Assembly: GCA_038042445.1 (NCBI GenBank)
Contig: JBBTED010000021.1
Span: forward strand, 68,085 to 132,084
DNA length: 64,000 nt
From: Candidatus Firestoneibacteriota bacterium
Lineage (GTDB): Bacteria > Oederibacteriota > D2-FULL-39-29 > JBBTED01
Direction of reading: 5' to 3'
The translations under genes and the position numbers were made by a program. Positions 1,480-56,986 of this stretch are shown here, one piece after another; the first letter of the stretch is position 1, and the number at the start of each line of letters is the position of its first letter. The notes under the pieces were generated by a model. It ran no database searches and had not been told where the DNA came from. It saw nothing but the letters and a program-made list of their open reading frames with translations.

Positions 1480-2244
<765 letters not shown>

Positions 2245-2427: not shown

Positions 2428-2718
2428 TTAAATTATTAACGGCCCTTCTAAATCCACTATTTCTTTTGCTCCTATATGCTCTACCCTTCTTTTCCAATTT
2501 GAACCTAAAAAATAAAAACGAAGGCTGTCTTTCTTATCGTCAATTTCATCAATTAGTTTTTGCCGTAATACTGTCCATTGAGTAGGGTCAACGTTACATT
2601 CAAAAACTGAATACTGAACACGTTGCCCATAATTCAAACAAGTTTTAGCAACTCGACGTAAACGTTTCTGTCCGCCAACATCAGACGTCATAACATCATA
2701 ACTTACAATAACAAGCAT
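2428..2718 (-). CDS. cas2: CRISPR-associated endoribonuclease Cas2
   Basis: 96 aa MLVIVSYDV...RVQYSVFEC, Cas2 fold signature, directly downstream of cas1. Confidence 0.93.
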   Translation of the reverse strand: MLVIVSYDVMTSDVGGQKRLRRVAKTCLNYGQRVQYSVFECNVDPTQWTVLRQKLIDEIDDKKDSLRFYFLGSNWKRRVEHIGAKEIVDLEGPLII

Positions 2719-2730
2719 AATGTATACTCC

Positions 2731-3762
2731 TTATTTCCATATAAATACAGGATACCCATCTAAATCACCACGTAAAAATCGTGACAACAATAATGCCTGA
2801 ATATAAAACAATAAACCTACTGGAACCGTTTCTTTTATAAAGGGATGCATTATTTCCTCTTGTTTCCGTTTTTGATAAGCAACTAAAACGGTTTTACGAG
2901 TATCATCATCCATTAACACAGCCCCAGATTCTGATTTTTTGAATCCCTTCTTTTGAATTTGTTCACGATTAATCAAAGATAAAACTAAACGGTCAGCTAT
3001 AAATGGCCTAAATTCTTCCATTATGTCTAACGCTAATCCCGGACGTCCTGATCTATCTCTATGCATAAAACCAACATATGAATCTAAACCAACAGATTCT
3101 AATGCAGAACGTATATCATGCATTAAAAGTGTGTATAAAAAAGACAATAAACAGTTTACTTCATCTAATGGCGGTCGTCGATTTCTTTCTTCAAATTTAA
3201 AATCGTTTTTTTGGGCTACAATTAAATGGTCAAAAACATTAAAATACTTATGTGCAGCGTCTCCTTCAATTCCACGGAGGGTATCCAAATCTATTTTTCC
3301 TTCGAGCTGTCTCAAAGAAGATTTCAGAGATACAGATACGAAATTAATTTGATCTGAATTAATTTTATCGCTATGATCACGAAGTGCTCTTTCCAAAACA
3401 ACCCGGCTATTTGAAATTTTCCCGATTAAAATAGCTCTTGCTATCTCTGCAGAAAAATCCATATTATCCGCCTTGCGATAATGCTCACGTCTAAGTAAAA
3501 CATTCCCTGATGTTTTACCATGAACACGAGCTAAGAAATGTCCGTATTCTGTAAGAAAACTTATCGTTACATTATTTTCAGCACAAAAACCAAGTAAGAA
3601 AGGACTACACAGAACATTACCAAAACACACAATCCCGCCAAGTGTATGAACAGGAACCTGAAGCTTAACTTCTTTTTCAACTGAAACAACAACAGTCTCA
3701 CCTTCTTTGGAAAGATATGCACCCTGTGTTGTTATAAATAATGTGTTGAGATATTTTTTCAT
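2731..3762 (-). CDS. cas1: CRISPR-associated integrase Cas1 (type I-C)
   Basis: 343 aa with conserved Cas1 features (...GIEGDAAHKYF...; acidic/His active-site region); sits in the cas4-cas1-cas2 adaptation module. Confidence 0.93.
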   Translation of the reverse strand: MKKYLNTLFITTQGAYLSKEGETVVVSVEKEVKLQVPVHTLGGIVCFGNVLCSPFLLGFCAENNVTISFLTEYGHFLARVHGKTSGNVLLRREHYRKADNMDFSAEIARAILIGKISNSRVVLERALRDHSDKINSDQINFVSVSLKSSLRQLEGKIDLDTLRGIEGDAAHKYFNVFDHLIVAQKNDFKFEERNRRPPLDEVNCLLSFLYTLLMHDIRSALESVGLDSYVGFMHRDRSGRPGLALDIMEEFRPFIADRLVLSLINREQIQKKGFKKSESGAVLMDDDTRKTVLVAYQKRKQEEIMHPFIKETVPVGLLFYIQALLLSRFLRGDLDGYPVFIWK

Positions 3763-3913
3763 TTAGATTTCTCAAATTTATTCACACCTTCTATTTGCCT
3801 AAAGGACATTTTTAATTTGGCAGACAGTGTCTGCGAAATCTCTTTAGAAGATAAAGCTTTGCTCCCCTGTGTTTTTATAATAACAATTCTCCTCATTTAA
3901 TCCCCTACTAAAC

Positions 3914-4555
3914 CTATCCACCTTCAGAATTTTCAATTATTCCCTTAAGATAGTTACCCACCATTGTTCTTTTTCCACATACTTTTGGAAGACATATATT
4001 AACAAGTGAACATGAATCGCATTTGGAAGCATATAACGGTTTTGGAGTTTTGCCTTCTTTAATAAATTCATGCAAACGTAACGCTGTATCCTTTGTTTTC
4101 TGACGTAACAATTCATTAAATTCTATATCCAATCGATGTTTGGTTTTACCATAAAAAATTGCTCCAGACGGTATTTTTACATTCAGCATTTCCTCAAGAC
4201 ACAATGCTTGAGCACAAAGCTGAACTTTATCACAATCATCAGATTTAGGTTTTCCTCTTTTATATTCTATAGGAAATGGTATCCATCGTCCTTTTTCATC
4301 TTTTTGGAATTCCACAACATCTGCTTTCCCATTTAATCCAAACTCATTAGAACGCAGTGGAATACCTTGTTCAATTTTTACAGCTTTCCTTATCGCAATA
4401 TGCTCCTCATGAACCATATCATGCATAATCCTGCCTTCAGCTGTAAATAGATTTTCACCCCAAAGTTGCTCAATATGAATTAAAGCGCACTGCCTCCGGC
4501 AGAACACAAAATGCTGAAGCGCTGATAGTTGTAAAAAATCTTCTTCTTTAAACAT
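3914..4555 (-). CDS. cas4: CRISPR-associated exonuclease Cas4 (RecB-like nuclease, 4-Cys C-terminus)
   Basis: Start refined to ATG 4555, which overlaps the cas7 TAA. The track ORF extends to 4672, overlapping cas7. N-terminus [30 protein letters not shown] is the typical Cas4 start. C-terminal cysteines CDSC...C...C fit the Fe-S cluster. Confidence 0.88.
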
Positions 4556-5657
4556 TAACAATTTTAAAATTTTCATCGAGCTTTTTGCCATCAAGCTGAA
4601 CCTCATAATCAGAAAATTGGCGCGCTGGACCCTTTGTAGTTCGCTTACAATCAACTCTTCCAAATAACTCATTTGCAGGTTTATTTCCTAAAGCCGTATT
4701 ATGTTCAAATACAATAATATTACGAGTAGACATAAGCCCCCTCGCGGCTGAATGATCATGTTCAAACATTTCTTTTAATGCTTTCCAAAAAAGATCAAGA
4801 TCATCTTTAGAAAAACCTGTTTGCGCAGCCAGATGAGCGGAAATAAACCCGTGAGAACGATAGATACCATAGGGAATGGTAAACTTGCGCCCCATAGTAC
4901 GATTATCACCACTCTGCTTTTCGGCTTCGGCCTCTGTAGCTACTGCCATACGAGTAATACTATGTTCAAGAGCAACAACCGGCTCTACAGAACGCGCAAA
5001 AGTAAATTGAATGGGTCCGCGTACTTGCCCACAATTTGGTGCAGACTTCAATGACATAACTGCCCCAAATGTTCGCACGTCAAAGAAATTTTTGCACATC
5101 CAATCGCGTCCTTTTTCTACTTCATCCCCTTTAGGTTTCCTTGATTTGGCATCCTTCATTATTTTATTAATAAAATCTTTGATTTCTTTTGATGGCTTCG
5201 ACTCTTTGATATAAGTTTTTACCGCAGTCTTATCAACATCTGCGGCAACAACAAGATATTTTTTTCCAGTATCATCTTCGTCTATTATTAAACCTTCCGG
5301 TAAACTCCATTCTTCAAGTAAATCCACTAATTTTGAATCTGATATTTCTGCACGCGATTCTTGCCCCAAGGCAATCTTCAAATCATTAAATGCGGTAACA
5401 TGCGCCCTGCCAAGAACTGCTTTTTCTTTAATATAAATATCATAACCATTTTCTGGAATACCATCTTTAAATTTTGTTAATTGCACATAATTTCTTACTT
5501 TACGTTTTAAACATACATCAGTAACCAATCCCATACCAGTTTCCGCGTCAACACGCGGTAAATTTCCGGCATCTGGATCACCATTTGGATTTCCATCCTG
5601 AACATCAAAAAACAGAACAAAATCATAACGCTTATCAATCTTTTTATTGTCTTCCAT
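4548..5657 (-). CDS. cas7: Type I-C Cascade backbone protein Cas7c (Csd2)
   Basis: 369 aa [37 protein letters not shown], the hallmark Csd2/Cas7 N-terminus. Confidence 0.93.
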
Positions 5658-5683
5658 AAAATTTCTCCTTTTTTAAAGTTAAA

Positions 5684-7408
5684 TTATTGTTTATCTTTTT
5701 TTGTAAAATAATCCTGCCGCTCGTGATAATAACCCACAGCAAAACGAGCCTGTTCATCAAGCGTTAGATGCGACGGCAAATCATCCTTCAGGGCATCAAA
5801 AATTTCTCCGATTTCTTTTTCAAAATTCACTTTACGTCCAGGATTAAGTTTTGCCAGATGATGATTTTTCAGCTTAAGCAGTTGCGGAAAAACAGTTATA
5901 GGCGTCGCCGACACCGCGCCATAAAATCTATCGCGGATGGTCGCGTTAATCTTCGGGTTGGCTTCCTCCTGAATTTTTTCAAGCACAGCAAACAACCGCC
6001 CCAATCGATATGCCGTGTTTATGTTACTTCTGTCTAATGACATAAGCACCTCCTTTTCTGGTTTTTTATAAAATTTATTAAATCTGTTAATATAAGCTTT
6101 AAGAATCGCCGCGCGAACCCTTGTAACTTGTTGTTCAGCCCGAATACGACGGATACACTGCTGAAGCAATGTTTGCGGATACGGCGTTCCTTCAAGTATG
6201 CTGACAACAACCTGGCCAGCAAGATTTGGCGGGACATTATCCATTTTATAATCAAACGCTGTCGCGCTTAAAATTTTGAGTAACGGCATATATCTCTGAT
6301 ACTCTGGTTCATTATGCTCTAATTTCATCTCAAAATCTTCAAAATGTTGTTTTATTTTTTCTGCAAAATCGCGGATAGCACCGGTTTTCCAAAAACGCAC
6401 AGAAATACGCGCTGAGTTTGGCGCAAGCCCCAGAACATAAAAGCGATTGCCTTCGTCAAGAGGCAGTTTGCCGGAATGTAATGCCTCATATAAATTCTTA
6501 ACAGCCTTAACGCCTTTCTCAGGATCAGCTTTATCTGTTTTAAAATACCATCGGAAGTCAGCCTCAAAATCATATTTTTCAGATTGTTTTTGAGACCAGA
6601 AAAGCACTGTAGTGTCTGCAATTGATATTTTATTTTGTGAATCTTTTCCAAGTAACATATTTAAAGCAGTACTATAAGCAAATGCAACTTTTTCACTAAC
6701 AGGAGAATTATAACTTTGCTTCTTACCATAGGAATTAAACGCAGGAAGATTAAAAGAAACAATAGAAGCACCTTGAGTATTTGTTCCACGCACACCTTTT
6801 ATTGAAGAATGTAACCGTGCGATATTTGATATTTCCCCTGTCACACTGCAAATACTCTTTTGAACATTTTCATCAATGGAAAATTCTTTTTTTTCTTTTG
6901 GTAAAACATCGCAAATTGTTTGGAAATCGCTTCCTTCTATTTTAAAACTAACAAATGGATTAGATTCCAACATCTCTTTCCATGATTCACTTGAGCTATT
7001 TGATTTTTTTATCTGATCACTAGGTTGAGAATCAAGAAACTTAACAATAGCTTTAATATCACAATGATTAATTTTTGCATTTAAAATACGTTTTTTAAAA
7101 GCATCAAATCTTTCATGAACATCCTTACGATTTCTTGGATTGGCTCCCAATGCATACTCAATATTATCCCATAGTAAAAATGGTTTAATACCCGTTGTTC
7201 TTTTCTCTCCTTGCGGTACAAGAAATACATTTGCACGTTTCTTATTACCGTTTATTTGACGAGTGTCATTAATCCTTAAAAATTTACCCTCTTTATCAAT
7301 TACAACAAGAAATGGGATTTCTTTCCATTCCCAACCTTCAGGCGCTATTTTGCCTTCAGTATTAGCCGCTTTTCTTTGATAATATTCATACAATGCCTGT
7401 AAAATCAT
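5684..7408 (-). CDS. cas8c: Type I-C large subunit Cas8c (Csd1)
   Basis: 574 aa starting MILQALYEYYQRK, as in Csd1 family members. Its size and its position between cas5 and cas7 match I-C. Confidence 0.88.
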   Translation of the reverse strand: MILQALYEYYQRKAANTEGKIAPEGWEWKEIPFLVVIDKEGKFLRINDTRQINGNKKRANVFLVPQGEKRTTGIKPFLLWDNIEYALGANPRNRKDVHERFDAFKKRILNAKINHCDIKAIVKFLDSQPSDQIKKSNSSSESWKEMLESNPFVSFKIEGSDFQTICDVLPKEKKEFSIDENVQKSICSVTGEISNIARLHSSIKGVRGTNTQGASIVSFNLPAFNSYGKKQSYNSPVSEKVAFAYSTALNMLLGKDSQNKISIADTTVLFWSQKQSEKYDFEADFRWYFKTDKADPEKGVKAVKNLYEALHSGKLPLDEGNRFYVLGLAPNSARISVRFWKTGAIRDFAEKIKQHFEDFEMKLEHNEPEYQRYMPLLKILSATAFDYKMDNVPPNLAGQVVVSILEGTPYPQTLLQQCIRRIRAEQQVTRVRAAILKAYINRFNKFYKKPEKEVLMSLDRSNINTAYRLGRLFAVLEKIQEEANPKINATIRDRFYGAVSATPITVFPQLLKLKNHHLAKLNPGRKVNFEKEIGEIFDALKDDLPSHLTLDEQARFAVGYYHERQDYFTKKDKQ

Positions 7409-8595
7409 CGCCGCACCTCCTTATCCGTCTGGGGTTTTGGAATGGGTTGGTTCTGTTCCCAATAAGCGCGGTCGTTTTCAATTAAATGCTGGATTTCTTC
7501 AGGTTTGGGAAGCACAACCATATAGCGCGATACAAAAAGCTGATGATCCAAACCGCCGACTGCGTATTCAACTTTTGTCTGATCCTTATCCGTACACAGG
7601 ATTAATCCAATTGGCGGATTATCCCCTTCGGTCATCATTTGATCTTTCCAGTAATTAAGATAAAAATTCATCTGGCCGGCGTCGCCGTGCTGAAATCTTC
7701 TGATCTTCAGATCAATAAGCAGATGACAGCGAAGAATACGATGGTAAAAAACAAGGTCTATATAATCATTTTCATTACCAACTGTAATTCTCTTCTGCCG
7801 GGCTTCAAAACAAAATCCATTTCCCAGTTCAAGCAAAAATGATTGTAAGTGATTAAGAAGAGCATCTTCAAGCGTTGATTCATGATACTGTGATTTTTCC
7901 GCTAATCCGGTAAATTCCAGAACATACGGGTCGCGAATAATGTCTGCGATTGTCTGAGGCATTTCAATTGCCTGTTTTCTACCCGCTTCAATCACAGCTT
8001 TTTTATCTGTCGACAACCCCGTTCTTTCATAAAGAAGCGAACCAATTTGCCGCTGAAGCTGACGTTTGGACCAATTACCTTTTAAGCATTCATTTTCATA
8101 AAACGCGCGCTTCCATGGATCGTCAATAGATATCAGTTCTACAAAATGAGTCCATGATAAATTTATAAGAAATTTAACCGCAAGAGGTTTTGGTAATTTT
8201 AATTTTCCTGTGTCTAATTTGCTCACCGCTGGCGGGCATTTTGAAAACATATTTATATTTTTTGGCAAAACAAATAAGTTCACCGCTGGTGAGCATATTT
8301 GTTCAGCAATCTGCGGATACATCTGATAAAAAAGACGCATTCGTTGAAGCATCTGCCGGCTGCATCCGGCTATGTTCCGCTTTTGTAAATCAACGGATAA
8401 GCGTGACAACAAGCTCTCCCCATACTCAGCCCGGTCTTTACCTTTTTGTTCATACTCAATGATATATGCTCCAATAAGCCAGTTACGTAAAATAAGAAAG
8501 CGATTTACCGTTCCAGCCGCACCAGATTGAGCCTGCTTATGGACTTTGCTGATGGTATCTATCAATGCGGAATAATTCAATTTTTCAGATTTCAT
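7405..8595 (-). CDS. YhcG/DUF1016 family PD-(D/E)XK nuclease embedded in the cas operon
   Basis: About 396 aa. The N-terminal domain (RNWLIGAYIIEYEQKGKDRAEYGESLLSRLSVDLQ...RLFYQMYP) and middle domain (SWTHFVELISIDDPWKRAFYENECLKGNWSKRQLQRQI) match DUF1016_N. The C-terminal NDYIDLVFYHRILRCHLLIDLKIRRFQHGDAGQMNFYLNYW matches the YhcG nuclease core (DLLFYHR...IELK...GQ.NFYL). Start ATG 8595-8593 overlaps the cas5 TGA as ATGA. Stop TGA 7407-7405 overlaps the cas8c ATG as ATGA. Confidence 0.75.
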   Translation of the reverse strand: MKSEKLNYSALIDTISKVHKQAQSGAAGTVNRFLILRNWLIGAYIIEYEQKGKDRAEYGESLLSRLSVDLQKRNIAGCSRQMLQRMRLFYQMYPQIAEQICSPAVNLFVLPKNINMFSKCPPAVSKLDTGKLKLPKPLAVKFLINLSWTHFVELISIDDPWKRAFYENECLKGNWSKRQLQRQIGSLLYERTGLSTDKKAVIEAGRKQAIEMPQTIADIIRDPYVLEFTGLAEKSQYHESTLEDALLNHLQSFLLELGNGFCFEARQKRITVGNENDYIDLVFYHRILRCHLLIDLKIRRFQHGDAGQMNFYLNYWKDQMMTEGDNPPIGLILCTDKDQTKVEYAVGGLDHQLFVSRYMVVLPKPEEIQHLIENDRAYWEQNQPIPKPQTDKEVRR

Positions 8596-9344
8596 TTCCG
8601 CACCTCCTCGCTGTCCCATAAAGGAATAACTATTACACCATTATCTATCTTTGCCCGAAAAAATGCCGGCATTGGATTATTGATGTCTGTAAAATCCATG
8701 TCGTAAAGCATAAAACCGAGTTCTCTTGTTTCATCAATAGGCTTTTTTTCTTTTTTCGGTTCTTCAATCAGCCTGAACATACACGAAAATTCGCGGCAAC
8801 CCAAATAAGGACGATTGAAACATTGCCCTTTTCGCGCGCGGCGTTCAAACATCGCGTTATATTTTCCCGGATTTTCGTCTTTTGGATCCCCTTCAAACTC
8901 AGTTTTTTCTTCTTTATCAATCAAATACTCTGGAACAGGACTATAAGTTTTACTTCTTTTACCTAACGGTATAAATACAAGTTCCGCGTGTATTCGATAT
9001 TTAACATCCCTCAAAAAAAGCCCCGCGCGTTGTTGACGAACATCTTCGATGAAAAGTCCATCTGTTCGGTCGCTCATTACCGCGCCAACCTCATTGCGTC
9101 TTACAGATATCCATTTAATTGGATTTAACACTTCAATCTTTTTAACCTGCCATCTGATTGCCGGCTTCCAGAAAATCGCTTCAAAAATCGCCCGGCTGGC
9201 AGATGGCGTGATAACATCATAACTCACGCGTTCAACCTTCATCTCAGGCCGGGTAAAACAGGCGTAATCGCCCCAGACTTCAAGGCAAAAAGTTTTGTTA
9301 AAAAATGTAGACATATTTTCAATATCCTCCTTTCTAATAACCAT
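8592..9344 (-). CDS. cas5: Type I-C Cas5c (Cas5d) pre-crRNA processing subunit
   Basis: FCLEVWGDYACFTRPEMKVERVSYDVITPSA is the classic Cas5d N-terminal motif. An alternative start at M (9314) is possible. Confidence 0.9.
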   Translation of the reverse strand: MVIRKEDIENMSTFFNKTFCLEVWGDYACFTRPEMKVERVSYDVITPSASRAIFEAIFWKPAIRWQVKKIEVLNPIKWISVRRNEVGAVMSDRTDGLFIEDVRQQRAGLFLRDVKYRIHAELVFIPLGKRSKTYSPVPEYLIDKEEKTEFEGDPKDENPGKYNAMFERRARKGQCFNRPYLGCREFSCMFRLIEEPKKEKKPIDETRELGFMLYDMDFTDINNPMPAFFRAKIDNGVIVIPLWDSEEVRK

Positions 9345-9354
9345 ATTTTAGTAG

Positions 9355-11688
9355 TTAAAAAATAAATATTTCGCTGTCCCAATCCTTCGAATCCGGCAGA
9401 AGGCCTATACCTGGTTTGTAAAGCCCGGTTGCTTTCTGTACCCAGTAGCCGTGAATGTCTTCAATATAATCTCCACGCTTTAATTTTTCAAAAACCGGCA
9501 AAGGCACATTTACAATAAATCGCTGTAACTTTCTGATTATCCAACGTTCGGGTCCTTTGTTACGAAGATAATCGATAAAAGTCAGGCTGTTATTTCCCTT
9601 TCCTTGATACCAGACAATAATGCTTCTTTGAACTGTATCGTCTATAAGCCTTACATCCTGCGCAAAAGTGCGAAACTGGAATTTGAATTCTCCAGATTCT
9701 TTTACAAGTCTTTCTTGAAATTTTGGTTTGTCAAAATTATTTACATATCCATAAAAATTTTTAAAATATTCAGTATATAGAATTGGCTGTAAATCATGTA
9801 TAGGATAATTGCGTAAAACGCTTTTTGACGCATCCTCGCCCTTACGAAGAAGACCTGTAGGCGCTGACTTAGGCGGTTGAAAAACCACCATTTTACCCAT
9901 ACATCCCTCGTTATTTAATTTACCTTCACGATTACACCTGCCGGCCGCCTGAGCTATTGAATCCATGCCTGCTAAAGCACGATAAACAACTGGAAAATCA
10001 ATATCCACACCAGCTTCAACAAGCTGAGTGCTGACAACGCGGACAGGCTCACTATTTTTAAGTTTATGTTTAACTGACGATATAATTTCGCTTCGTTCTT
10101 CTCCGCACATATTTGCTGATAAATGTATCGTATCTTTCGGCATTAAAGCATGCAGATCGCGACAATCCTGACGTGTATTGACGATGCAAAGCACTTGTTC
10201 ATATTGCGCAAGCTGTTTCGCAACGTCAGGCCACTCCATACGTTCATCAAAATTTGGAGGTTCAATTTTAACTCTTTTGAATGACTTTGCAAGTTCCTCT
10301 GGATTGTCTATTATCTCAGTTACGTTTGACAGTCCTTCAAATACAGCCAGACCACTGCCGATTTTACCGCATAAAGCTGGCTGTGTAGCTGTACACAATA
10401 TAACCGTAACTCCAAAATATTTAACTAAACCGCGCAAAGTTGAAAGTATCGGTTCAAGATATTCCGGCGGCAACATTTGAGCTTCATCAAGAATAATAAC
10501 ACTATTAACAATATTATGTAATTTCCTGCATGACGATGTACGAAAAGCAAGCAATGATTCAAAAAGCTGGACATTAGTGGTAACTATTATAGGCACATCC
10601 CAGTTTTCAGAAGCAAGCCTGCTTTTATTATCTTCCTTATCCGGGTCAATATTACTGTGATGTTCAAGCACTGAATCCTCTCCAAATAATATATTTCCAC
10701 TTTTAATCGATTCAATAATTTTTTCTTCATCATCAGTTCCATATTTATAAACTTTTGCTGTTTGCTCAATTATACTTGTATATGGTATAGCCATAATAAT
10801 CCGCTGTTTACCATATTTTAACGCATGTTCCAAAGCAAAGGCCATTGAAGAAAGAGTTTTTCCCCCGCCAGTTGGAACAGTAAGAGAGAAAAATCCCGGA
10901 GATAATACTGCTTTTTTGCGACAAGTATCAAGTATAATGTTACGCTGTTTATTAATCTGTTCAGAAAAATCTTTTTTATTTTCCATAAACCGGTCAAAAC
11001 GTTCTTTTAAGGTTTTAATAGTTGGATAATTTCCACGAAGAGCAATTTTATTTTTATCCGATTCCATAAAAATTTCCGTATTAAGGAAATCCGCGTCTAC
11101 AAGGCATGAAAATAGCATTCGTATCCAGAGATGAAAAAATTCTTTACGATTTTCCATATCCTCCGGTTGTGATATATTAAGCGGTGTGGATTTTGGTAAA
11201 TTCTTATTAATAAACTCCTGCGATTGCTCAATTAAATTAATTTGGTCAAATTCTTTTTTATTTAAAATCCCTGAAAGCGGATCTGAATAAATACGATTAA
11301 TTAAATCACCACCTGCATTATCAGGACTCCAATCCGGCAATCCTGCATGATGACCAGCAACAATATAAGCAATAATCCGAGCAATAGCAGGATTTTTTAT
11401 GCGTGAAAATGCCAGAACTGCTCCAACGGTACTATGATTTGGACGCCATCCATAACCTTCTATATGTGCGTCTTCATCATATCCTGATGCTTTAGAAAGA
11501 TGTTTTTGCCAATCAGGAAGATATTTTCCCATATCATGCCAAAACCCCACAAGTTCAGCCCAATCTTGATTGCCAAATTCAGATGCGAATTCTTTTGCCT
11601 TTTTTGCTGTTTCATCAAGATGTTCTTTTATAGTCTGAGTTTCCCATTGTCCTAGTTCGTTTTTCTTTACATGTGCAAAATCTTTCAT
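9355..11688 (-). CDS. cas3: CRISPR-associated helicase/HD nuclease Cas3
   Basis: N-terminal HD domain (WHDMGKY...HSTVGA...AGHHAGL) followed by a DEAD/DEAH helicase (TGGGKT Walker A, DEAQ). Start taken at MKDFAHV (11688) to avoid overlap with the upstream gene; the track ORF extends to 11766. Confidence 0.9.
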   Translation of the reverse strand: MKDFAHVKKNELGQWETQTIKEHLDETAKKAKEFASEFGNQDWAELVGFWHDMGKYLPDWQKHLSKASGYDEDAHIEGYGWRPNHSTVGAVLAFSRIKNPAIARIIAYIVAGHHAGLPDWSPDNAGGDLINRIYSDPLSGILNKKEFDQINLIEQSQEFINKNLPKSTPLNISQPEDMENRKEFFHLWIRMLFSCLVDADFLNTEIFMESDKNKIALRGNYPTIKTLKERFDRFMENKKDFSEQINKQRNIILDTCRKKAVLSPGFFSLTVPTGGGKTLSSMAFALEHALKYGKQRIIMAIPYTSIIEQTAKVYKYGTDDEEKIIESIKSGNILFGEDSVLEHHSNIDPDKEDNKSRLASENWDVPIIVTTNVQLFESLLAFRTSSCRKLHNIVNSVIILDEAQMLPPEYLEPILSTLRGLVKYFGVTVILCTATQPALCGKIGSGLAVFEGLSNVTEIIDNPEELAKSFKRVKIEPPNFDERMEWPDVAKQLAQYEQVLCIVNTRQDCRDLHALMPKDTIHLSANMCGEERSEIISSVKHKLKNSEPVRVVSTQLVEAGVDIDFPVVYRALAGMDSIAQAAGRCNREGKLNNEGCMGKMVVFQPPKSAPTGLLRKGEDASKSVLRNYPIHDLQPILYTEYFKNFYGYVNNFDKPKFQERLVKESGEFKFQFRTFAQDVRLIDDTVQRSIIVWYQGKGNNSLTFIDYLRNKGPERWIIRKLQRFIVNVPLPVFEKLKRGDYIEDIHGYWVQKATGLYKPGIGLLPDSKDWDSEIFIF

Positions 11689-11699
11689 TTTAAACCTTT

Positions 11700-13070
11700 T
11701 TACCCTACGATGCCGTAGGTTCTTTGTTTGAAATCTACGGCTAATTCTTTGGCTATGTTCTTGCATTGTTCTATATCTACTGATGGTGCATCAACAGCAG
11801 TAACTACAACTTTTGGGATATGTTTTTTGCATTCCAGGATAAACTTTTTCATTTCATCATAAATAGAAACAGATTGCGCAAATTGACTCTGACAAAGTTT
11901 GTCATACTTGTCAGCAGTATCTGTATTTAAACTTATTGAAATTGTATCTATATACCTCGCAAGTTCTGGAACTATATTCCTATTATGTATCATATTTCCA
12001 TGACCATTAGTATTTATTCGCAAACGAATTCCTTTTGCCTTGAAAATTTTAGCGCTTTCCAAAATCAAATTCAAACGTATAAGAGGTTCTCCATATCCGC
12101 AATAAACTATTTCATCATAGTCATTTGGATTTTTCACCTCATTCATTATATCCTCAATTGTTGGTTCACGCTTTAATCTAAGATTATGACCTCGAACAAA
12201 ATCACTGTTATACCTCGCGCAAAATGTACAAGTATTTGAACAACGATTTGTTATATTTAAATATAATGAATTACGAATTTTATAAGATATTTTACTTGCT
12301 TCTTCAACACCAACTCTAAATAGATATTTCGCATTTATTGTTGTCCAATGTTCAACTTCAGCTAATTCTATGTTTTTAAGTTCTGCTATTTTTTGGGCTA
12401 CCTCTACAATATATGATGGCTCATTTCTCATACCTCTTTTAGATTGTGGAGGAAGATATGGAGCATCTGTTTCAAGTATTATCCTATAAATAGGTAATAG
12501 TTTTATTGTACTTTGCAATTTGACAGAATTAGGATAAGTGATTGTTCCTCCAATTGAGAAATAAAAACCCATATCCAAACATTCTTTCATCATCATCTCA
12601 TTGCCTGAAAAACAATGTAAAACTCCACCTATTTCCTGCGCATTTTCTTCTTTTAAGATTCTCAAAACATCGTTATGGGCATCTCTATCATGGACAACAA
12701 TTGGAAGTGCCAATTTATGCGCTAATTTTATCTGTGCCCTAAAATTTTTCTCCTGAGCTTCTTTTGAAGTAGTGCTTCTATAGTAATCCAACCCAGTTTC
12801 ACCAATTGCTACAACTTTTGGATTTTTGCCAAGAGCAAAAAACTTATCATAAGTTTCCTCTGACATAGTATTGGCATAATGCGGATGCACACCTATTGTT
12901 GTATAAATATTCTCGTATTTTTCAGATAAAGCAATGGATTGAATACTACTTTCAAGACAAGTGCCTATATTTACCAAATAATCTACACCTGATTCTTTTG
13001 CCCTGCGAATAACATCCTCGCGGTCAGAATCGTATTTTTTATCTTCTAAATGTATGTGTGTATCAATCAT
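11700..13070 (-). CDS. TatD-family metal-dependent DNase fused to a TatD-associated radical SAM domain
   Basis: N-terminus MIDTHIHLED...GETGLDYY...ETDAPYL is TatD hydrolase. The C-terminal half has the radical SAM motif CSNTCTFCAR and a glycine-rich SAM-binding region. Both fused in one 456-aa ORF. Confidence 0.75.
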   Translation of the reverse strand: MIDTHIHLEDKKYDSDREDVIRRAKESGVDYLVNIGTCLESSIQSIALSEKYENIYTTIGVHPHYANTMSEETYDKFFALGKNPKVVAIGETGLDYYRSTTSKEAQEKNFRAQIKLAHKLALPIVVHDRDAHNDVLRILKEENAQEIGGVLHCFSGNEMMMKECLDMGFYFSIGGTITYPNSVKLQSTIKLLPIYRIILETDAPYLPPQSKRGMRNEPSYIVEVAQKIAELKNIELAEVEHWTTINAKYLFRVGVEEASKISYKIRNSLYLNITNRCSNTCTFCARYNSDFVRGHNLRLKREPTIEDIMNEVKNPNDYDEIVYCGYGEPLIRLNLILESAKIFKAKGIRLRINTNGHGNMIHNRNIVPELARYIDTISISLNTDTADKYDKLCQSQFAQSVSIYDEMKKFILECKKHIPKVVVTAVDAPSVDIEQCKNIAKELAVDFKQRTYGIVG

Positions 13071-13072
13071 AA

Positions 13073-14374
13073 TTAAGATCCTGAAACAAGTTCAGGATGA
13101 CCTTCTCGGGTTATTTTTGAAATTGCGTCTGTGAAAAAATCTTCTGTTCCGAAGCCTCCTGATTTTAGCACTAATAACATCTCTTTTTCCATTGCTAAAC
13201 TTACAGGAACACCAGGTTGAATTTCTTTAAGAATTAAACTGCAAATTATTCCCAATTTTCTGCAAACAGTTACTGCTGTATCTCCACCTGCAATAATTAA
13301 TTTTGTTATATTGATTTTTTTAGACACTTTAAATACAGTTTCAGCCAAAACTTCTGATACTTTTTCGCATATAGTTTTTATATCTGCATCCAGTTCTTTA
13401 GTTTTTTCAATAATACCTTTATCTAAAGCTGAAGTTATCAAAACATTTTTACCTGACTTAATTAAATCTATTGTAGCATCAATTATTGTATTTATCTCAA
13501 TATTAAATTTGTCAGGATCAGACCATAACAGATTTGTATTTATCTGAAATACTTCTATATCATTTTTTTTTGCGAATAAAGTTTGTTTTCTACTTACTTC
13601 TGTAGCACTACCTACTACTATTAGAGTTCCTAAGGTGTCATTGCTAACTTGTTTCGGAATTTTACATATAGATTCTGAAACAAGTTCAGAATGACAAGGT
13701 AATTCTTCTGCTAATGCAGAACTACCTGCAAATACAGGCATATCAGAAACAACTTGCGCTATAATTTTCAAATCATCTTGCAACACTGTGTCTATTATTA
13801 CTATCTGAAATTTATTTTTAGCAGTTTCAATTGCTTCTTTTAGTTTTGCAACTCCATCCCTTACTATATCTAATGTTATTAAACCCACTTTTAATTGTGT
13901 TTGTGAGCTTATTATTTTTGGCAAATACGAATCTTTCATTGGATGAATTATATCTTTATTTCTTTCTGTGTTTTCTAATAATATTTCATTTATATAATGA
14001 TACCCGTTTTTAGTAGTTCTATTATTTTTAGGAAATGCAGGAACAAGAATAATAAATTTACAATTACATTCATTCATAACAGCTTCTATTTCTGAACCTA
14101 TGTTTCCTCTGAGTGTAGAATCTATTTTTTTATAAATAAATTTGCATCCCAATGATAATAATTTATTCGCAGCTTTCTTAACTTTTTCATAAGCAAGATT
14201 TTTATCATCATATCTGCTATTTGTATCAATTATTATAACATCAGTCTTATCAGTATACTCAACTATTTTGTCCATTGCTTCAAATAAAAACACTCTGGTT
14301 ATACACCCATTTTTTGCAAACATTGAACCAACATCATTTGCACCAGTTAAATCATCAGCAATAACACCAATCAT
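13073..14374 (-). CDS. Four-carbon acid sugar kinase family protein (DUF1537/OtnK-like)
   Basis: N-terminus MIGVIADDLTGANDVG matches the YgbK/OtnK family; two-domain length of 433 aa. Contains two in-frame palindromic repeat copies (see findings). Confidence 0.7.
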   Translation of the reverse strand: MIGVIADDLTGANDVGSMFAKNGCITRVFLFEAMDKIVEYTDKTDVIIIDTNSRYDDKNLAYEKVKKAANKLLSLGCKFIYKKIDSTLRGNIGSEIEAVMNECNCKFIILVPAFPKNNRTTKNGYHYINEILLENTERNKDIIHPMKDSYLPKIISSQTQLKVGLITLDIVRDGVAKLKEAIETAKNKFQIVIIDTVLQDDLKIIAQVVSDMPVFAGSSALAEELPCHSELVSESICKIPKQVSNDTLGTLIVVGSATEVSRKQTLFAKKNDIEVFQINTNLLWSDPDKFNIEINTIIDATIDLIKSGKNVLITSALDKGIIEKTKELDADIKTICEKVSEVLAETVFKVSKKINITKLIIAGGDTAVTVCRKLGIICSLILKEIQPGVPVSLAMEKEMLLVLKSGGFGTEDFFTDAISKITREGHPELVSGS

Positions 14375-16875: not shown

Positions 16876-17045
16876 AATTTTTCTTTCCTAAATTTCCACT
16901 TTCAAAACTGTGTCATAATGAGAATATTACGCGTTTTGTCATGCTGAATTCATTTCAGCATCTAATAAATTTGTTTTTAGACCCTGAAACAAGTTCAGGG
17001 TGACAAAAAACCGCTTATGACACAGTCTATTTCGTAGAAATGACA

Positions 17046-44979: not shown

Positions 44980-46350
44980 TTAAGACAAATCTTTAGATAT
45001 TGAATATTGCTGGATTTTCCTATAAAGAGTATCTCTGGATATTCTTAATATTTCAGCAGCTTTTAATTTATTTCCATTTGTAGATTTAAGAACTGAAATT
45101 ATAGCAGATTTTTCTGATTCCTCAAGGGAACATACTTTTACAGTATCAGAATTATTAGTTTCTAATACTCGCATATGCGAAGGTAAATCCTGTTCAACAA
45201 AAATATTTTTATTCACTTTAATTGCGAATAAACCTTCTATTAAATTTTCCAATTCACGAACATTGCCTGGCCAGTTGTATTTTACTAAAACATCCAATGC
45301 TTCACGTTCAAAACCCTCTACTTTCTTTTTGTATTTATCATTAAATTTATCAATAAAATATTTCACAAGAAGTGGAATATCTTCTTTTCTTTCTCTAAGT
45401 AGAGGAATTGTGATAGTAATAGTGCTTAATCTATAGTACAGTTCCTTTCTTATGCCACTTTTATTTCCATCAGAAATTATATTATGCGATGATGCAGCAA
45501 GAATTCTTACATTTACAGCTATTTCTTTTATATCACCTACAGGCCTTATTTTTTTGTCCTGAAGGACTCTTAAAAGTTTTGCCTGACTTTCCTTTGGCAT
45601 TTCACTAATTTCATCAAGCAATATTGTCCCTCCTTCACTTGCTCTGAATATACCTATATAATCCGAATTCGCACCTGTAAAACTTCCTTTTTTATAACCA
45701 AAAAGTTCACTCTCAACAAGATTTGAAGGAATACCTCCACAATTTATCGGCATAAATGTATTATTTTTTCTATTACTTAAATTATGTATTGCTCTTGCAA
45801 CAAGTTCTTTTCCAACACCAGTTTCTCCAAGTATCAAAACAGGACAATCTACAGATGCCGATGCCCTTATTCTATCAAAAACATTTTTCATTAATTTACT
45901 TTCTCCAATAATATTTTCGATGCTATATTTCGAATTAAGCTGGCTCTGTAAATGAGCAACATCAGTCTCAAGTTTCATTATTTTAAATAAGCGATTAATA
46001 CAAATCATAATCTGATCTTTAGTAAAAGGTTTAATTATATAATCAGAAGCTCCCATTTTTATTGCTGTAACTGCATCCTGAATTGTTCCATAACCAGTCA
46101 TCATAATAACTTCAATAGCAGGACTATGTTCTTTGATTTTTTTCAAAAGCTCAAATCCATTCATTTGACCCATTCTAATATCGGTTATAATAATTTTAAC
46201 GTCCTGCTCAATCTTGATTTTCTCAATAGCTTCCTCACCAGAATATGCCTTAACAGTAGAAAATCCCTGTCTTAAAAAAAGTTTTGCGCAGGTCTCTACC
46301 ATACCCTTATCATCATCAACAATTAAAATTTTTATCATATCATGTATCAT
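44980..46350 (-). CDS. Sigma-54-dependent response regulator (NtrC family), paralog 2
   Basis: REC, AAA+ sigma-54 activator (GETGVGKE...ESELFGYKKGSFTGA) and HTH domains; 456 aa. Confidence 0.9.
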   Translation of the reverse strand: MIHDMIKILIVDDDKGMVETCAKLFLRQGFSTVKAYSGEEAIEKIKIEQDVKIIITDIRMGQMNGFELLKKIKEHSPAIEVIMMTGYGTIQDAVTAIKMGASDYIIKPFTKDQIMICINRLFKIMKLETDVAHLQSQLNSKYSIENIIGESKLMKNVFDRIRASASVDCPVLILGETGVGKELVARAIHNLSNRKNNTFMPINCGGIPSNLVESELFGYKKGSFTGANSDYIGIFRASEGGTILLDEISEMPKESQAKLLRVLQDKKIRPVGDIKEIAVNVRILAASSHNIISDGNKSGIRKELYYRLSTITITIPLLRERKEDIPLLVKYFIDKFNDKYKKKVEGFEREALDVLVKYNWPGNVRELENLIEGLFAIKVNKNIFVEQDLPSHMRVLETNNSDTVKVCSLEESEKSAIISVLKSTNGNKLKAAEILRISRDTLYRKIQQYSISKDLS

Positions 46351-46403
46351 GCTGAATTTATTTCAGCATCTCTTTTAGACCCTGAAACAAGTTCAGGGTG
46401 ACA
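46348..46403. repeat. Family A two-hairpin palindromic repeat, intergenic copy 2
   Basis: CATGCTGAATTTATTTCAGCATC ... GACCCTGAAACAAGTTCAGGGTGACA. Near-identical to 16938-17005. Confidence 0.75.
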
Positions 46404-47809: not shown

Positions 47810-47875
47810 ATTTTAATTGTTGGGATTGCTTCGCTTTCGCTCGCAATGACGTGATTCATTAATATTGATAATAGC

Positions 47876-48394: not shown

Positions 48395-48455
48395 TGTCAT
48401 CCCGAACTTGTTTCGGGATCTCAAAAAGAGATGCTGAACCAAGTTCAGCATGACA
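48395..48455. repeat. Family A-related two-hairpin repeat (variant, stems with compensatory changes)
   Basis: TGTCATCCCGAACTTGTTTCGGGATC ... GATGCTGAACCAAGTTCAGCATGACA. Sits between ilvB and ilvN. Confidence 0.6.
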
Positions 48456-55258: not shown

Positions 55259-56986
55259 TCACATTTTAAATTGCATTTCATAAAGTTTTTTATAAAGGCC
55301 ACCTTTTGTCATCAACTCTTCATGTTTTCCAACATCTGCTATTTTACCATCGTCAATCACAACTATTTTATCTGCCTTCATAACAGTAGAAAGTCTGTGA
55401 GCAATTACAAATGTAGTCCTATTTTTCATCAAATTATTCAAAGCGTCTTGAACTAACTTCTCTGATTCATTATCAAGGGCTGATGTAGCTTCATCTAAAA
55501 TTAATATTGGAGGATTTTTTAATATTGCACGTGCAATTGCTATTCTCTGTTTTTCTCCACCTGAAATTTTAGCTCCACGTTCACCAATAAATGTATCATA
55601 TCCATAAGTTGTTTCTATTATGAAATCATGCGCATTAGCAGCACAAGCTGCAAACTCTACAGCTGAATCAGTAGTTATAGGATTACCATAAGCAATATTA
55701 TTCCTAAAAGTATCATTAAATAAAATAGTCTCCTGTGTTACAATACCCATTTGTGCACGCAAACTTTTCAATGTAACTTTCTGGACATCAATATCATCAA
55801 TTTTTATACTACCTTTGGTTGGATTATAGAACCTAAGCAATAAATTCACCAAAGTGGTTTTGCCAGAGCCACTTGGGCCTACAATTGCTATTACTTCCCC
55901 TGCATTTATTGATAAATTTATACTTTCAAGCACATCTTTTTTACCGTCATAAGAAAAATTCACATTTTCAAAAATTATGCTATTTTTCACTGGCTCTATA
56001 TTAATTGTTCCGTTATCTTCTTCAGGTGGAACATCCATTAAATTAAAAACTCTTTCAGCAGCAGCAAGTGACTGTTGAAGTGTTTGATTTATTCCATTTA
56101 GATTATGAAGTGGTTTATATAATGATAGTAATGTAGCAACAAAAGCTGTAAACCCTCCTATTGAAAGTTGTCCACTTACAACCTGTCTTCCTGAAAAAGC
56201 TATTAAAAAAGAAATTCCAAGCCCTCCAATAAATTCCATTATCGGGCTGGACATAGCTGTTATTTTTAATGATTTCATAGATATATCAAAAAAATTTCTG
56301 TTTTCTTTTTTGAATTTATCAATCTCTGCTTTTTCCATACCAAAACCTTTAACCACTCTTATACCACTTATCGTTTCATATAAAATAGCAGAAATATCTG
56401 CAGTTTTGGCCTGACTTTTAGAACTTATCTTGCGTATTTTTGCTCCAAATTTATATAGAGGATAAATGGCTATAGGAAATACAAATAAAGCTATTATTGC
56501 CATTTGCCAGTTCAATTTAAATATCAAAATAATAAGCCCTATTAGAGTCAAGCCATTGCTTGCTACACTACCTACAATTCCACTAACAGCATTTTGCATA
56601 ATAGAAACATCATTTGTTATTCTGGATATCAAATGGCCTGTTTTCTGATTATGATAAAAACTAATACTCATATATTGCAAATGTTCATACAGCAGATTTC
56701 TTATATCCATTATTACTCTCTGTCCTGTATTATTTATCAGATAATCCTGTGCATAATATGCAAGCCCTTTTATAAAAAAAAGTCCTAATAACGCAAGCGG
56801 TATTATTTTGATAAACATTAACGCTTCTTCTTTATTGGGATTAGCAAATATTTTGTCAAAAACAGGTTTTAATATATACATTAGTCCAACTGTACAACTG
56901 GAAACTATTGTCATACAAACTAATGCAATAATTATTCTTTTAGTATAAGGTCGGACATATTTTAATAATCTCAAATATAATTTCAT
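55259..56986 (-). CDS. msbA: Lipid A export ABC transporter permease/ATPase
   Basis: Six-TM domain plus NBD (GPSGSGKTT, ISGGEKQRIAIARA, ILILDEATSALD); adjacent to lpxB. Confidence 0.75.
   Translation of the reverse strand: MKLYLRLLKYVRPYTKRIIIALVCMTIVSSCTVGLMYILKPVFDKIFANPNKEEALMFIKIIPLALLGLFFIKGLAYYAQDYLINNTGQRVIMDIRNLLYEHLQYMSISFYHNQKTGHLISRITNDVSIMQNAVSGIVGSVASNGLTLIGLIILIFKLNWQMAIIALFVFPIAIYPLYKFGAKIRKISSKSQAKTADISAILYETISGIRVVKGFGMEKAEIDKFKKENRNFFDISMKSLKITAMSSPIMEFIGGLGISFLIAFSGRQVVSGQLSIGGFTAFVATLLSLYKPLHNLNGINQTLQQSLAAAERVFNLMDVPPEEDNGTINIEPVKNSIIFENVNFSYDGKKDVLESINLSINAGEVIAIVGPSGSGKTTLVNLLLRFYNPTKGSIKIDDIDVQKVTLKSLRAQMGIVTQETILFNDTFRNNIAYGNPITTDSAVEFAACAANAHDFIIETTYGYDTFIGERGAKISGGEKQRIAIARAILKNPPILILDEATSALDNESEKLVQDALNNLMKNRTTFVIAHRLSTVMKADKIVVIDDGKIADVGKHEELMTKGGLYKKLYEMQFKM

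What the first reader, a model, noticed from the sequence alone, without database searches (positions are those of the whole stretch)
13077..13102. Palindromic repeat (family A) supplies the last codons of the DUF1537 kinase and recurs in-frame mid-gene (13672-13697)
The 17-mer CTGAAACAAGTTCAG(G/A)ATGAC occurs twice inside this one gene. It encodes ...HPELVSGS-stop at the C-terminus and ...HSELVSES... in the inter-domain linker. It also occurs in at least three intergenic sites. A 5-fold recurrence of a 17-26-mer in 64 kb is not chance. The element has therefore inserted into coding sequence in-frame, the hallmark of Rickettsia-palindromic-element-like selfish repeats that create new peptide segments.
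Basis: seen in the sequence. Interest (0 to 1): 0.6.

Follow-up and report, generated by a model that had tools for sequence, protein, structure and literature searches.

The report
Known hairpin repeat inside a kinase gene
The repeat is real and belongs to a published, very widespread family of short DNA hairpin repeats (CGTC-tagged REPs, type 2), which are linked to a small single-strand DNA nuclease; here copies sit in frame in a floppy linker and at the tail of a sugar kinase, an ordinary and already described behaviour of this family.

Summary
The 21-mer occurs exactly at 13081-13101 and 13675-13695, and four more times with up to 2 mismatches (0 expected by chance). The unit is a 28-nt tagged hairpin: (T/C)GTC, 8-bp stem, 5-nt loop, CTN tail. 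It shows compensatory stem changes and mostly occurs as tags-outward dimers.

The mid-gene copy is half of a 61-nt dimer that encodes the whole 21-aa inter-domain linker. The 3' copy encodes the last 8-9 residues.

This is the published CGTC-2 REP family (Di Nocera 2013), which lists the same peptide, RHSELVSGS, inside a Sulfurovum gene. Rickettsia RPE-4 and RPE-6 belong to the same superfamily.

The 25-mer occurs in more than 15 phyla. Chenal 2025 showed that CGTC-type hairpins are targets of GIY-YIG Ssn single-strand DNA nucleases. I found that CGTC-2 units bracket Ssn-like genes (66 of 80 loci, about 35-fold enrichment), although the published SRM search motif misses them.

The C-terminal tail is 8-9 aa longer than the family mode, consistent with an addition. 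The linker is not longer than in homologs, so "insertion" is not shown there. No ssn gene lies in the 82 kb accessible.

Verdict: a new member of a known kind, of low to moderate interest.

The parts
13073..14374 (-). Host gene: a DUF1537 / four-carbon acid sugar kinase of 433 aa. It is 100% identical to a protein of a Candidatus Firestonebacteria MAG.
   Evidence: ORF list. Pfam SBD_N at residues 2-225 and NBD_C at 251-414. P0001 is 100% identical. AF2 model has mean pLDDT 90.3.
13075..13102 (-). Single CGTC-2 unit: G-GTC ATCCTGAA CTTGT TTCAGGAT CTT. It encodes the last residues (G)HPELVSGS. Its tail runs into the TAA stop. Its 3' arm carries AGGA 8 nt before the ATG (13070) of the next gene.
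   Evidence: As DNA the hairpin folds at -6.2 kcal/mol, z = -2.95. The C-terminal tail is 24 aa against a family mode of 15-16. Residues 428-433 have pLDDT below 50.
13636..13696 (-). Tags-outward dimer in frame in the inter-domain linker. The intact unit is at 13669-13696 (TGTC ATTCTGAA CTTGT TTCAGAAT CTA). An 11-nt spacer follows, then a degenerate inverted partner at 13636-13663. The dimer encodes CHSELVSESICKIPKQVSNDT.
   Evidence: The intact unit folds at -5.3 kcal/mol and the partner alone at 0. The whole dimer folds as one long hairpin at -13.9 kcal/mol, z = -6.7. It lies between the two Pfam domains. The region is coil with pLDDT about 63. The linker length equals the family mode.
16937..17005 (.). 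Intergenic tags-outward heterodimer: an ATGCTGAA-type unit (+) and an ACCCTGAA-type unit (-) with a 19-nt spacer. It lies between two TMEM260-like/TPR genes.
   Evidence: Folds at -18.8 kcal/mol, z = -6.9.
46345..46403 (.). Intergenic tags-outward heterodimer between the histidine kinase gene and the sigma-54 response regulator gene. The left unit's tag has degenerated to ATC, and its end supplies an upstream ATG at 46350.
   Evidence: Pfam assignments for the neighbouring genes. Folds at -14.3 kcal/mol, z = -5.6.
48395..48455 (.). Intergenic tags-outward heterodimer (ATCCCGAA and ATGCTGAA units) between the acetolactate synthase large and small subunit genes.
   Evidence: Folds at -16.8 kcal/mol, z = -5.7.
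57470..57560 (-). Degenerate hairpin cluster in frame inside lpxB. It includes GTCAT-CCCTGAA-ATAAA-TTCAGGG and encodes ...RVIPEINSGQALSDSEGSQNEKLKS...
   Evidence: The Pfam LpxB match breaks at residue 217. Translation. E. coli LpxB lacks the segment. Folds at -13.5 kcal/mol, z = -3.9.
47823..47851 (-). A unit of a second CGTC-tagged hairpin family, CGTC ATTGCGAGCGAAAGCGAAGCAAT CCC. It is intergenic.
   Evidence: Sequence. The same type brackets a GIY-YIG gene in Lacinutrix locus L191.

Best explanation
**What it is.** The repeats are units of the CGTC-tagged REP superfamily, family CGTC-2. Each has an unpaired (C/T)GTC tag, an 8-bp stem beginning A-T/C, a 5-nt loop and a short tail. They usually occur as two inverted units with the tags pointing outward.

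**How it most likely works (inferred).** When the DNA is single-stranded, the hairpin plus its oriented tag is the recognition site of a small GIY-YIG nuclease of the Ssn type. That nuclease's own gene is typically bracketed by the same hairpins, like a miniature insertion sequence. The dispersed copies would then be its non-autonomous relatives.

**In this kinase.**
- One dimer occupies the flexible inter-domain linker.
- One single unit supplies the last 8-9 codons.
- Both use two of the three stop-free reading frames of the unit.
- Both fall in unstructured parts of the protein, so they are tolerated.

**What is shown.** The identity of the repeat family, hairpin covariation, dimer geometry, the cross-phylum spread, the in-frame location in disordered segments, and the association of this hairpin type with Ssn-like genes in other genomes.

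**What is inferred.** That a cognate nuclease acts on these copies in this organism, how the copies spread, and any effect on expression. One such effect could come from the 3' arm AGGA, which sits 8 nt before the next gene's ATG.
For: **Family features in the window**
- Tags are TGTC or GGTC, stems are 8 bp, loops are 5 nt and tails are CTN.

**Features across 299 distinct outside instances**
- The tag is CGTC in 167 and TGTC in 106.
- The commonest tail is CCA (93), which is the published consensus.
- The stem position left free by my pattern is Watson-Crick in 289 of 299, with three pair types (CG 149, GC 106, TA 34).

**Dimer geometry and reading frames**
- Tags-outward dimers number 121, against 32 tags-inward and 17 tandem.
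- 39 of 489 units lie deep in long ORFs. They are read as HPELVSGS-, VILNLFQD- or ILKQVQDD-type peptides, with a few divergent units.

**Published description**
- The CGTC families match, including intragenic dimers that encode 20-30 aa, double hits in one ORF and about 10% of units at ORF ends (PMC3733652).
- A CGTC-2 unit encodes RHSELVSGS in Sulfurovum SUN_0512.

**Spread**
- More than 120 genome contigs from more than 15 phyla, and more than 120 viral contigs, carry the 25-mer.

**Link to the Ssn nuclease**
- Ssn is a GIY-YIG nuclease specific for single-stranded DNA. It binds the CGTC-tagged hairpin NTS, and its gene shows an NTS-ssnA-NTS architecture (PMC11893778).
- All five GIY-YIG ORFs found in the CGTC-2 loci are flanked by such hairpins within 3-45 nt.
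- In 80 independent metagenome loci that encode homologs, 66 have tagged hairpins within 150 nt of a gene end, and 35 of 69 have them on both sides.
- Hairpin density is 6.64 per kb near the gene against 0.19 per kb elsewhere.
- 105 of the 155 flanking hairpins have the same stem types as the window.

**Fit to the protein**
- The repeat-coded segments are the least confident, coil parts of a pLDDT-90 model.
- A dimer with one CGTC-2 unit (ILKQVQDDK) and one unit of a different stem type (CHSGLDSES) is a clean net insertion of about 25 aa in an unrelated protein.
Against: - The published SRM search motif gives 0 hits in the window. It gives only 23 hits in the 80 Ssn-like loci, against 147 for the CGTC-2 pattern. 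Assigning CGTC-2 units to the Ssn system therefore rests on my own association test, not on the published definition.
- The flanked GIY-YIG ORFs were shown only to match PF01541. Membership of the cd10448 clade was not tested, and NCBIfam gave no hit.
- No ssn-like gene lies in the window or in the 18 kb of extra contig I could reach.
- The linker shows no length gain over homologs.
- No empty site is available for either intragenic copy.
- The way these repeats multiply is unknown, even in the literature.
Confidence: 0.82

Rival explanations
1. It is a REPIN-type element: a GTAG-tagged REP doublet mobilised by a RAYT (IS200-like Y1 HUH transposase).
For: - Inverted doublets of short hairpins are the REPIN architecture (PMC3116915 and PMC3337134, listed).
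- The dimers here fold strongly, with z from -5.5 to -6.9.
Against: - The tag is (C/T)GTC in 273 of 299 instances and is never GTAG.
- The 2013 survey found no RAYT flanked by CGTC units.
- Neighbour clustering around the units in 120 genome loci gave no transposase family.
- The same 25-mer occurs in more than 15 phyla, unlike lineage-specific, vertically inherited REPINs.
Confidence: 0.05
2. It is ancestral coding sequence: the peptide segments are conserved parts of the kinase, and the intergenic matches are unrelated.
For: The linker has the same length as in homologs.
Against: - None of 119 homologs has these peptides at those positions.
- The same nucleotide unit recurs in intergenic DNA of the window, with 0 matches expected by chance.
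- It also recurs in hundreds of unrelated contigs.
Confidence: 0.01
3. It is primarily an RNA-level element: a transcribed hairpin that stabilises mRNA ends or tunes translation between cistrons. Any tie to a nuclease would be secondary.
For: - All genes here are co-directional, and the dimers sit between cistrons.
- The unit at the kinase end places AGGA in its 3' arm, 8 nt before the next ATG.
- The 2013 paper argues that many REPs act as RNA.
Against: - No Rfam family matches at the gathering threshold.
- The conserved unpaired tag and strict orientation are features the Ssn work ties to ssDNA recognition. SsnA does not bind RNA.
- Copies inside coding regions cannot be explained this way.
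- This reading is compatible with the main explanation as a side effect.
Confidence: 0.1
4. It is an intrinsic transcription terminator or a chance palindrome.
For: It is a short stem-loop lying between genes.
Against: - No T-run follows the stem. The tails are CTN or CCA.
- Copies occur within ORFs.
- Zero matches are expected by chance.
Confidence: 0.01

Closest known systems
CGTC-tagged REPs, family CGTC-2 (Di Nocera, De Gregorio and Rocco 2013, BMC Genomics 14:522)
   Same: - The tag is CGTC or TGTC.
- The stem is 8 bp and starts with A, then T (here T or C).
- The loop is 5 nt and a short unpaired tail follows.
- Dimers with the tags outward predominate.
- Copies occur inside genes, with dimers encoding 20-30 aa, and sometimes two hits fall in one ORF or at ORF ends.
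- An identical peptide, RHSELVSGS, is listed for Sulfurovum.
   Different: - The host phylum (Candidatus Firestonebacteria) and the host gene are new.
- The tail in this AT-rich genome is CTN rather than the CCA consensus.
- The paper reported CGTC repeats in 5 phyla, whereas this 25-mer occurs in more than 15.
NTS/SRM repeats and the Ssn GIY-YIG ssDNA nuclease family (Chenal et al. 2025, Nat Commun 16:2388)
   Same: - The hairpin has an oriented HGTC tag.
- The repeat-gene-repeat architecture around a GIY-YIG gene of about 100 aa is seen for CGTC-2 units in 66 of 80 loci.
- The repeats occur in many phyla.
   Different: - The published SRM degenerate motif does not match these units.
- The stem here is AT-rich (CTGAAC/GTTCAG) rather than GC-rich (TTCCCGC).
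- No nuclease gene is seen in the accessible 82 kb.
- No biochemistry exists for this hairpin type.
Rickettsia palindromic elements (RPE)
   Same: - They are palindromic repeats found in frame inside genes, adding peptide segments.
- RPE-6 and RPE-4 are classed as CGTC-1 and CGTC-4.
   Different: - Per the 2013 paper, RPE-1 insertions are longer than these units (from my own knowledge, about 100-150 bp).
- RPE-4 and RPE-6 differ in stem or loop length (9 bp/5 nt and 8 bp/4 nt).
- The sequence is different.
REPIN/RAYT and E. coli BIME
   Same: They are inverted doublets of short hairpins that are abundant between co-directional genes.
   Different: - Their tag is GTAG.
- They are associated with a Y1 transposase.
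- Their sequences are lineage-specific.

Membership tests
CGTC-tagged REP, family CGTC-2 | An unpaired 5' tag of CGTC, often TGTC or CCTC | tested here: met
   Window tags are TGTC six times, GGTC once and a degenerate TATC once. Outside the window the tag is CGTC in 167 and TGTC in 106 of 299 instances.
CGTC-tagged REP, family CGTC-2 | An 8-bp stem with A then T in the first two positions, and a 5-nt loop | tested here: met
   All intact window units have an 8-bp stem of the form A(T/C)NCYGAA and a 5-nt loop. The free stem position is Watson-Crick in 289 of 299 instances.
CGTC-tagged REP, family CGTC-2 | A short unpaired 3' tail with consensus CCA | tested here: met
   A tail is always present. 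In the window it is CTN. Outside, CCA is the commonest single tail (93 of 299), and CTN tails total 187.
CGTC-tagged REP, family CGTC-2 | Mostly organised as inverted dimers of one predominant orientation | tested here: met
   Four of the five main window sites are tags-outward dimers (the degenerate lpxB copy is not counted). Outside the window there are 121 tags-outward, 32 tags-inward and 17 tandem dimers. The paper's own intragenic dimer peptides (VIPGLDPGIH...DGRVKPGHD) also have the tags outward.
CGTC-tagged REP, family CGTC-2 | Intragenic, in-frame copies that encode characteristic peptides | tested here: met
   The window encodes HSELVSES and HPELVSGS. RHSELVSGS is listed for CGTC-2 in SUN_0512.
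Ssn-related motif (SRM/NTS) of the Ssn nuclease system | A match to the published degenerate motif HGTCWYN(0-2)YYVSBRHN(0-5)WNVSBRGN(0-2)RNCYNB | tested here: not met
   There are 0 hits in the window, while the canonical NTS matches as a positive control.
Ssn-related motif (SRM/NTS) of the Ssn nuclease system | The repeats bracket the gene of a small single-domain GIY-YIG protein | tested here: met
   This was tested in other genomes, not this one. Tagged hairpins lie within 150 nt of a gene end in 66 of 80 loci, and on both sides in 35 of 69. They are about 35-fold enriched near the gene, and 105 of 155 have CGTC-2 stems. The ORFs match PF01541.
Ssn-related motif (SRM/NTS) of the Ssn nuclease system | The flanked GIY-YIG protein belongs to the Ssn clade (CDD cd10448) | not testable with these tools
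   No CDD library or SsnA reference sequence was available. NCBIfam gave no hit. The best PDB relatives are weak UPF0213 matches at E = 3e-4.
Ssn-related motif (SRM/NTS) of the Ssn nuclease system | A cognate ssn gene is present in the same genome | tested here: inconclusive
   tblastn found nothing in the window or in L241-L244, about 82 kb in all. The rest of the MAG could not be read.
Ssn-related motif (SRM/NTS) of the Ssn nuclease system | Cleavage near the hairpin that is specific to single-stranded DNA | not testable with these tools
   This needs a biochemical assay.
GTAG REP / REPIN-RAYT | A GTAG tag and a flanked RAYT gene | tested here: not met
   The tag is never GTAG. No transposase family is enriched near the units.
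Intrinsic terminator | A GC-rich stem followed by a T-run | tested here: not met
   The tails are CTN or CCA, and copies lie inside ORFs.

The most novel reading that the evidence does not exclude
CGTC-2 hairpins (stem CTGAAC/GTTCAG) may be the cognate sites of a distinct, uncharacterised subclade of Ssn single-strand DNA nucleases, with a new cleavage specificity that the published SRM motif misses. Their in-frame copies would make housekeeping genes in more than 15 phyla cleavable whenever the DNA is single-stranded. In addition, the kinase linker was rewritten by a dimer at constant length. That hints that these repeats can replace sequence, in a repair- or conversion-like event, as well as insert.
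Probability: 0.4. Interest if true: 0.5.

Novelty: new member of a known kind. Interest (0 to 1): 0.3.

Why it matters
**For annotation.** Three genes in this 64-kb window carry repeat-derived codons: the kinase twice and lpxB once. One ORF start is also probably over-extended by a repeat end. Recognising the family prevents misreading these as functional motifs or as 'hypothetical proteins'.

**For biology.**
- The case adds a little-studied phylum to a repeat family whose partner nuclease was identified only in 2025.
- The most common hairpin type around one Ssn-like subclade lies outside the published search motif. Surveys that use that motif will therefore undercount these repeats.

The in-frame behaviour itself was already described in 2013.

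Tried and rejected
- **Rfam at gathering threshold:** only two tRNAs matched.
- **Full-text search for the nucleotide and peptide strings:** nothing relevant was found.
- **Search for a mobilising transposase.** I clustered ORFs within 1.5 kb of the units. The top clusters were syntenic regions shared by related viral contigs, which I took to be prophage-like. The independent genome loci gave only housekeeping genes, plus the GIY-YIG lead.
- **XerC-like ORFs next to units in two loci:** not followed up, because two cases are too few.
- **NCBIfam scan of the GIY-YIG ORFs:** no family matched.
- **Supplementary data of the Ssn paper:** not held in the library.
- **Extending the contig at both window ends to find an ssn gene:** none was found.
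- **Looking for close orthologs of the kinase to show an empty site.** The best non-self hit is 43% identical overall and 45% outside the linker.
- **First relaxed unit search.** It double-counted palindromes on both strands and was redone with an exact GTC tag.
- **One fold request** used wrong coordinates for the 47,8xx unit and is ignored.
- **The third protein-database search** was not spent on looking for a Firestonebacteria ssn gene. A top-120 list was unlikely to include one.

Full report
**1. The observation**

The pattern CTGAAACAAGTTCAGRATGAC occurs exactly at 13081-13101 and 13675-13695. It occurs with one mismatch at 16984 and 46382, and with two at 48396 (-) and 48434 (+). That is six matches against 0.00 expected in dinucleotide shuffles.

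Both exact copies lie in ORF 13073..14374 on the minus strand. Pfam identifies this ORF as a DUF1537 / four-carbon acid sugar kinase, with SBD_N at residues 2-225 and NBD_C at 251-414. The protein is 100% identical to one from a Candidatus Firestonebacteria MAG. The two copies read HSELVSES (residues 228-235) and HPELVSGS-stop (426-433).

**2. Anatomy**

Read on the strand that carries the tag at the 5' end, each unit has four parts:
- an unpaired (T/G)GTC tag
- an 8-bp stem, A(T/C)NCYGAA
- a 5-nt loop, mostly CTTGT
- a CTN tail

Copies differ by compensatory changes. The stems seen are ATCCTGAA/TTCAGGAT, ATTCTGAA/TTCAGAAT, ATGCTGAA/TTCAGCAT, ACCCTGAA/TTCAGGGT and ATCCCGAA/TTCGGGAT.

The three intergenic sites are each a pair of inverted units with the tags pointing outward: 16937-17005, 46345-46403 and 48395-48455. 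Each pairs one ATGCTGAA-type unit with one A(C/T)CC(T/C)GAA-type unit.

The mid-gene copy also has a partner, at 13637-13660. The partner is degenerate and no longer folds on its own. The whole 61-nt dimer still folds as one long hairpin at -13.9 kcal/mol, z = -6.7. About 21 codons of the gene are therefore repeat-derived (CHSELVSESICKIPKQVSNDT), not 8-9.

The copy at the gene's 3' end is a single unit. Its tail runs into the TAA stop, and the next gene's ATG follows 2 nt later.

**3. Spread and structural constraint**

The degenerate 25-mer GTCAYNCYGAACTTGTTTCRGNRTC hits more than 120 viral or proviral contigs and more than 120 reference-genome contigs.

The genomes come from many groups: Sphingomonadales, Bacteroidota, Spirochaetota, Melainabacteria, several CPR/Patescibacteria lineages, Elusimicrobiota, Nitrospirota, Nitrospinota, Ignavibacteria, Campylobacterota, Firmicutes, Dadabacteria and others.

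Over 299 distinct instances:
- The base before GTC is C in 167 and T in 106.
- The commonest tail is CCA (93).
- The stem position that my pattern left completely free is Watson-Crick in 289 of 299, with three pair types.

Over the loci:
- Tags-outward dimers number 121, against 32 tags-inward and 17 tandem. Spacer lengths peak near 10 and 41 nt.
- About 8% of units (39 of 489) lie deep inside long open frames. They are read as ...HPELVSGS..., ...VILNLFQD... or ...ILKQVQDD..., with a few divergent units.

**4. Identification**

The features match the CGTC-tagged REP superfamily of Di Nocera, De Gregorio and Rocco (PMC3733652). That superfamily is described as follows:
- The tag is CGTC, often TGTC.
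- Stems are 8 bp (families 1 and 2) or 9 bp, and start with A then T.
- Loops are 4 nt (family 1) or 5 nt.
- There is a 3-nt tail with consensus CCA.
- One dimer orientation predominates.
- Intragenic copies occur. Dimers encode 20-30 aa, some ORFs are hit twice, and about 10% of units lie at ORF ends.
- No dedicated transposase is known.

An 8-bp stem with a 5-nt loop is family CGTC-2. The paper's supplementary table lists a CGTC-2 unit inside Sulfurovum SUN_0512 that encodes RHSELVSGS, the same peptide as here. The same paper classes Rickettsia RPE-6 and RPE-4 as CGTC-1 and CGTC-4.

**5. Partner enzyme**

I looked for any gene family enriched next to the units and found no transposase. I did find a GIY-YIG ORF of about 100 aa bracketed by the hairpins in two unrelated genomes. 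All five such ORFs in the held loci had tagged hairpins within 3-45 nt.

The literature already explains this. Chenal et al. 2025 (PMC11893778) showed that GIY-YIG proteins of the Ssn family are site-specific nucleases for single-stranded DNA. They bind the CGTC-tagged hairpin NTS of Neisseria, which contains dRS3, itself a CGTC-1 repeat. Binding depends on the oriented upstream tag. The genes show an NTS-ssnA-NTS arrangement like an insertion sequence, and the nuclease modulates natural transformation.

The published degenerate SRM motif does not match the units in this window: 0 hits, with the canonical NTS as a positive control. I therefore tested the association for this hairpin type directly, in 80 metagenome loci that encode homologs of the flanked GIY-YIG ORFs:
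- 66 loci have GTC-tagged hairpins within 150 nt of a gene end.
- 35 of 69 have them on both sides.
- Density is 6.64 per kb near the gene against 0.19 per kb elsewhere.
- The tags point away from the gene.
- 105 of the 155 flanking hairpins have the same stem types as the window.

In those loci the published motif finds 23 sites and the CGTC-2 pattern finds 147.

The ORFs match Pfam GIY-YIG. I could not test whether they belong to the cd10448 clade. No such gene lies in the window or in the 18 kb of extra contig I could reach.

**6. Insertion or not?**

None of 119 kinase homologs carries the repeat peptides at these positions. The segments are therefore lineage-specific in sequence.

- **C-terminal tail.** It is 24 aa after the GGFG motif, against a mode of 15-16. 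The excess equals one 27-nt unit.
- **Linker.** It is 28 aa between invariant anchors, against a mode of 27. The 25 closest homologs have 25-28. There is no net gain, yet the whole linker is repeat-coded.

An AlphaFold model (mean pLDDT 90.3) shows both repeat-coded stretches as the least confident, coil parts. Residues 231-240 have pLDDT about 63, and residues 428-433 are below 50.

As a contrast, a dimer with one CGTC-2 unit (ILKQVQDDK) and one unit of a different stem type (CHSGLDSES), in an unrelated protein (P0121, locus L132), is a clean net insertion of about 25 aa. There, 118 of 119 homologs have three residues at that point.

The kinase linker therefore needs either an insertion followed by loss of the old linker, or a replacement-type event. 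No close relative exists to decide between these (best 45% identity).

**7. Verdict**

The finding is real, and its kind was correctly sensed. It is a published repeat family behaving in a published way, in a new phylum and a new gene.

Two modest additions came out of the work:
- The CGTC-2 type lies outside the published SRM search motif yet brackets Ssn-like genes.
- The linker dimer brought no length gain.

Noticed in passing
window 1547-2178 and 2428-11766: A CRISPR array with period 66-67 and repeat GTTTCAATCCACGCGCCCACGCGGGGCGCGAC on the + strand. It sits next to a presumed cas gene block that includes an 803-aa ORF which looked Cas3-like from its translation alone (no family search was run). 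GC is 0.36-0.38 here against about 0.30 elsewhere, which suggests horizontal acquisition. Another assembly of the same organism breaks its contig at the array (L242).
   Followed up: partly
window 57470-57560 (lpxB, 56983-58182, minus strand): A degenerate cluster of tagged hairpins lies in frame inside lpxB and encodes ...RVIPEINSGQALSDSEGSQNEKLKS.... The Pfam LpxB match breaks at residue 217, and E. coli LpxB lacks the segment. This is probably a third repeat-derived coding segment in the window.
   Followed up: partly
window 47823-47851 (minus strand); L191 1930-2040: A second CGTC-tagged hairpin family, CGTCATTGCGAGCGAAAGCGAAGCAATCC, has an internal GAAA loop. The same type brackets a GIY-YIG gene in Lacinutrix venerupis. 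Several hairpin types may therefore each have their own nuclease partner.
   Followed up: partly
window 13070-13102: The 3' arm of the hairpin at the kinase end contains AGGA 8 nt upstream of the ATG of the next ORF, a TatD-radical SAM fusion at 11700-13070. Stop and start are 2 nt apart. The repeat may therefore both supply and sequester that gene's ribosome-binding site.
   Followed up: no
window 46338-46372: The degenerate end of a repeat unit (CATGAT) supplies an upstream ATG at 46350 that extends the sigma-54 response regulator ORF. The ATG at 46338 (MIKILIVDDD...) is the likelier start.
   Followed up: no
L241 1-7710 (just beyond the window's right end): A block with a phage-type integrase, AlpA-like and several HTH genes lies next to the window's last gene. 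It may be an integrated element.
   Followed up: no
L245-L324: The published SRM search motif finds 23 sites in 15 of 80 Ssn-like loci. A CGTC-2 pattern finds 147 sites in 47 loci. Motif-based surveys of Ssn targets will miss this hairpin type.
   Followed up: yes
L157 1489-1677; L137: An Ignavibacterium MAG has five units in alternating orientation within 190 nt, forming a cluster. One unit also lies on a contig binned as Nanoarchaeota, which may reflect mis-binning or horizontal transfer.
   Followed up: no
L242 2703-2726: One more unit of the family (GTCATGCTGAATTTATTTCAGCAT) lies between ruvA and ruvB, just outside the window's left end.
   Followed up: no
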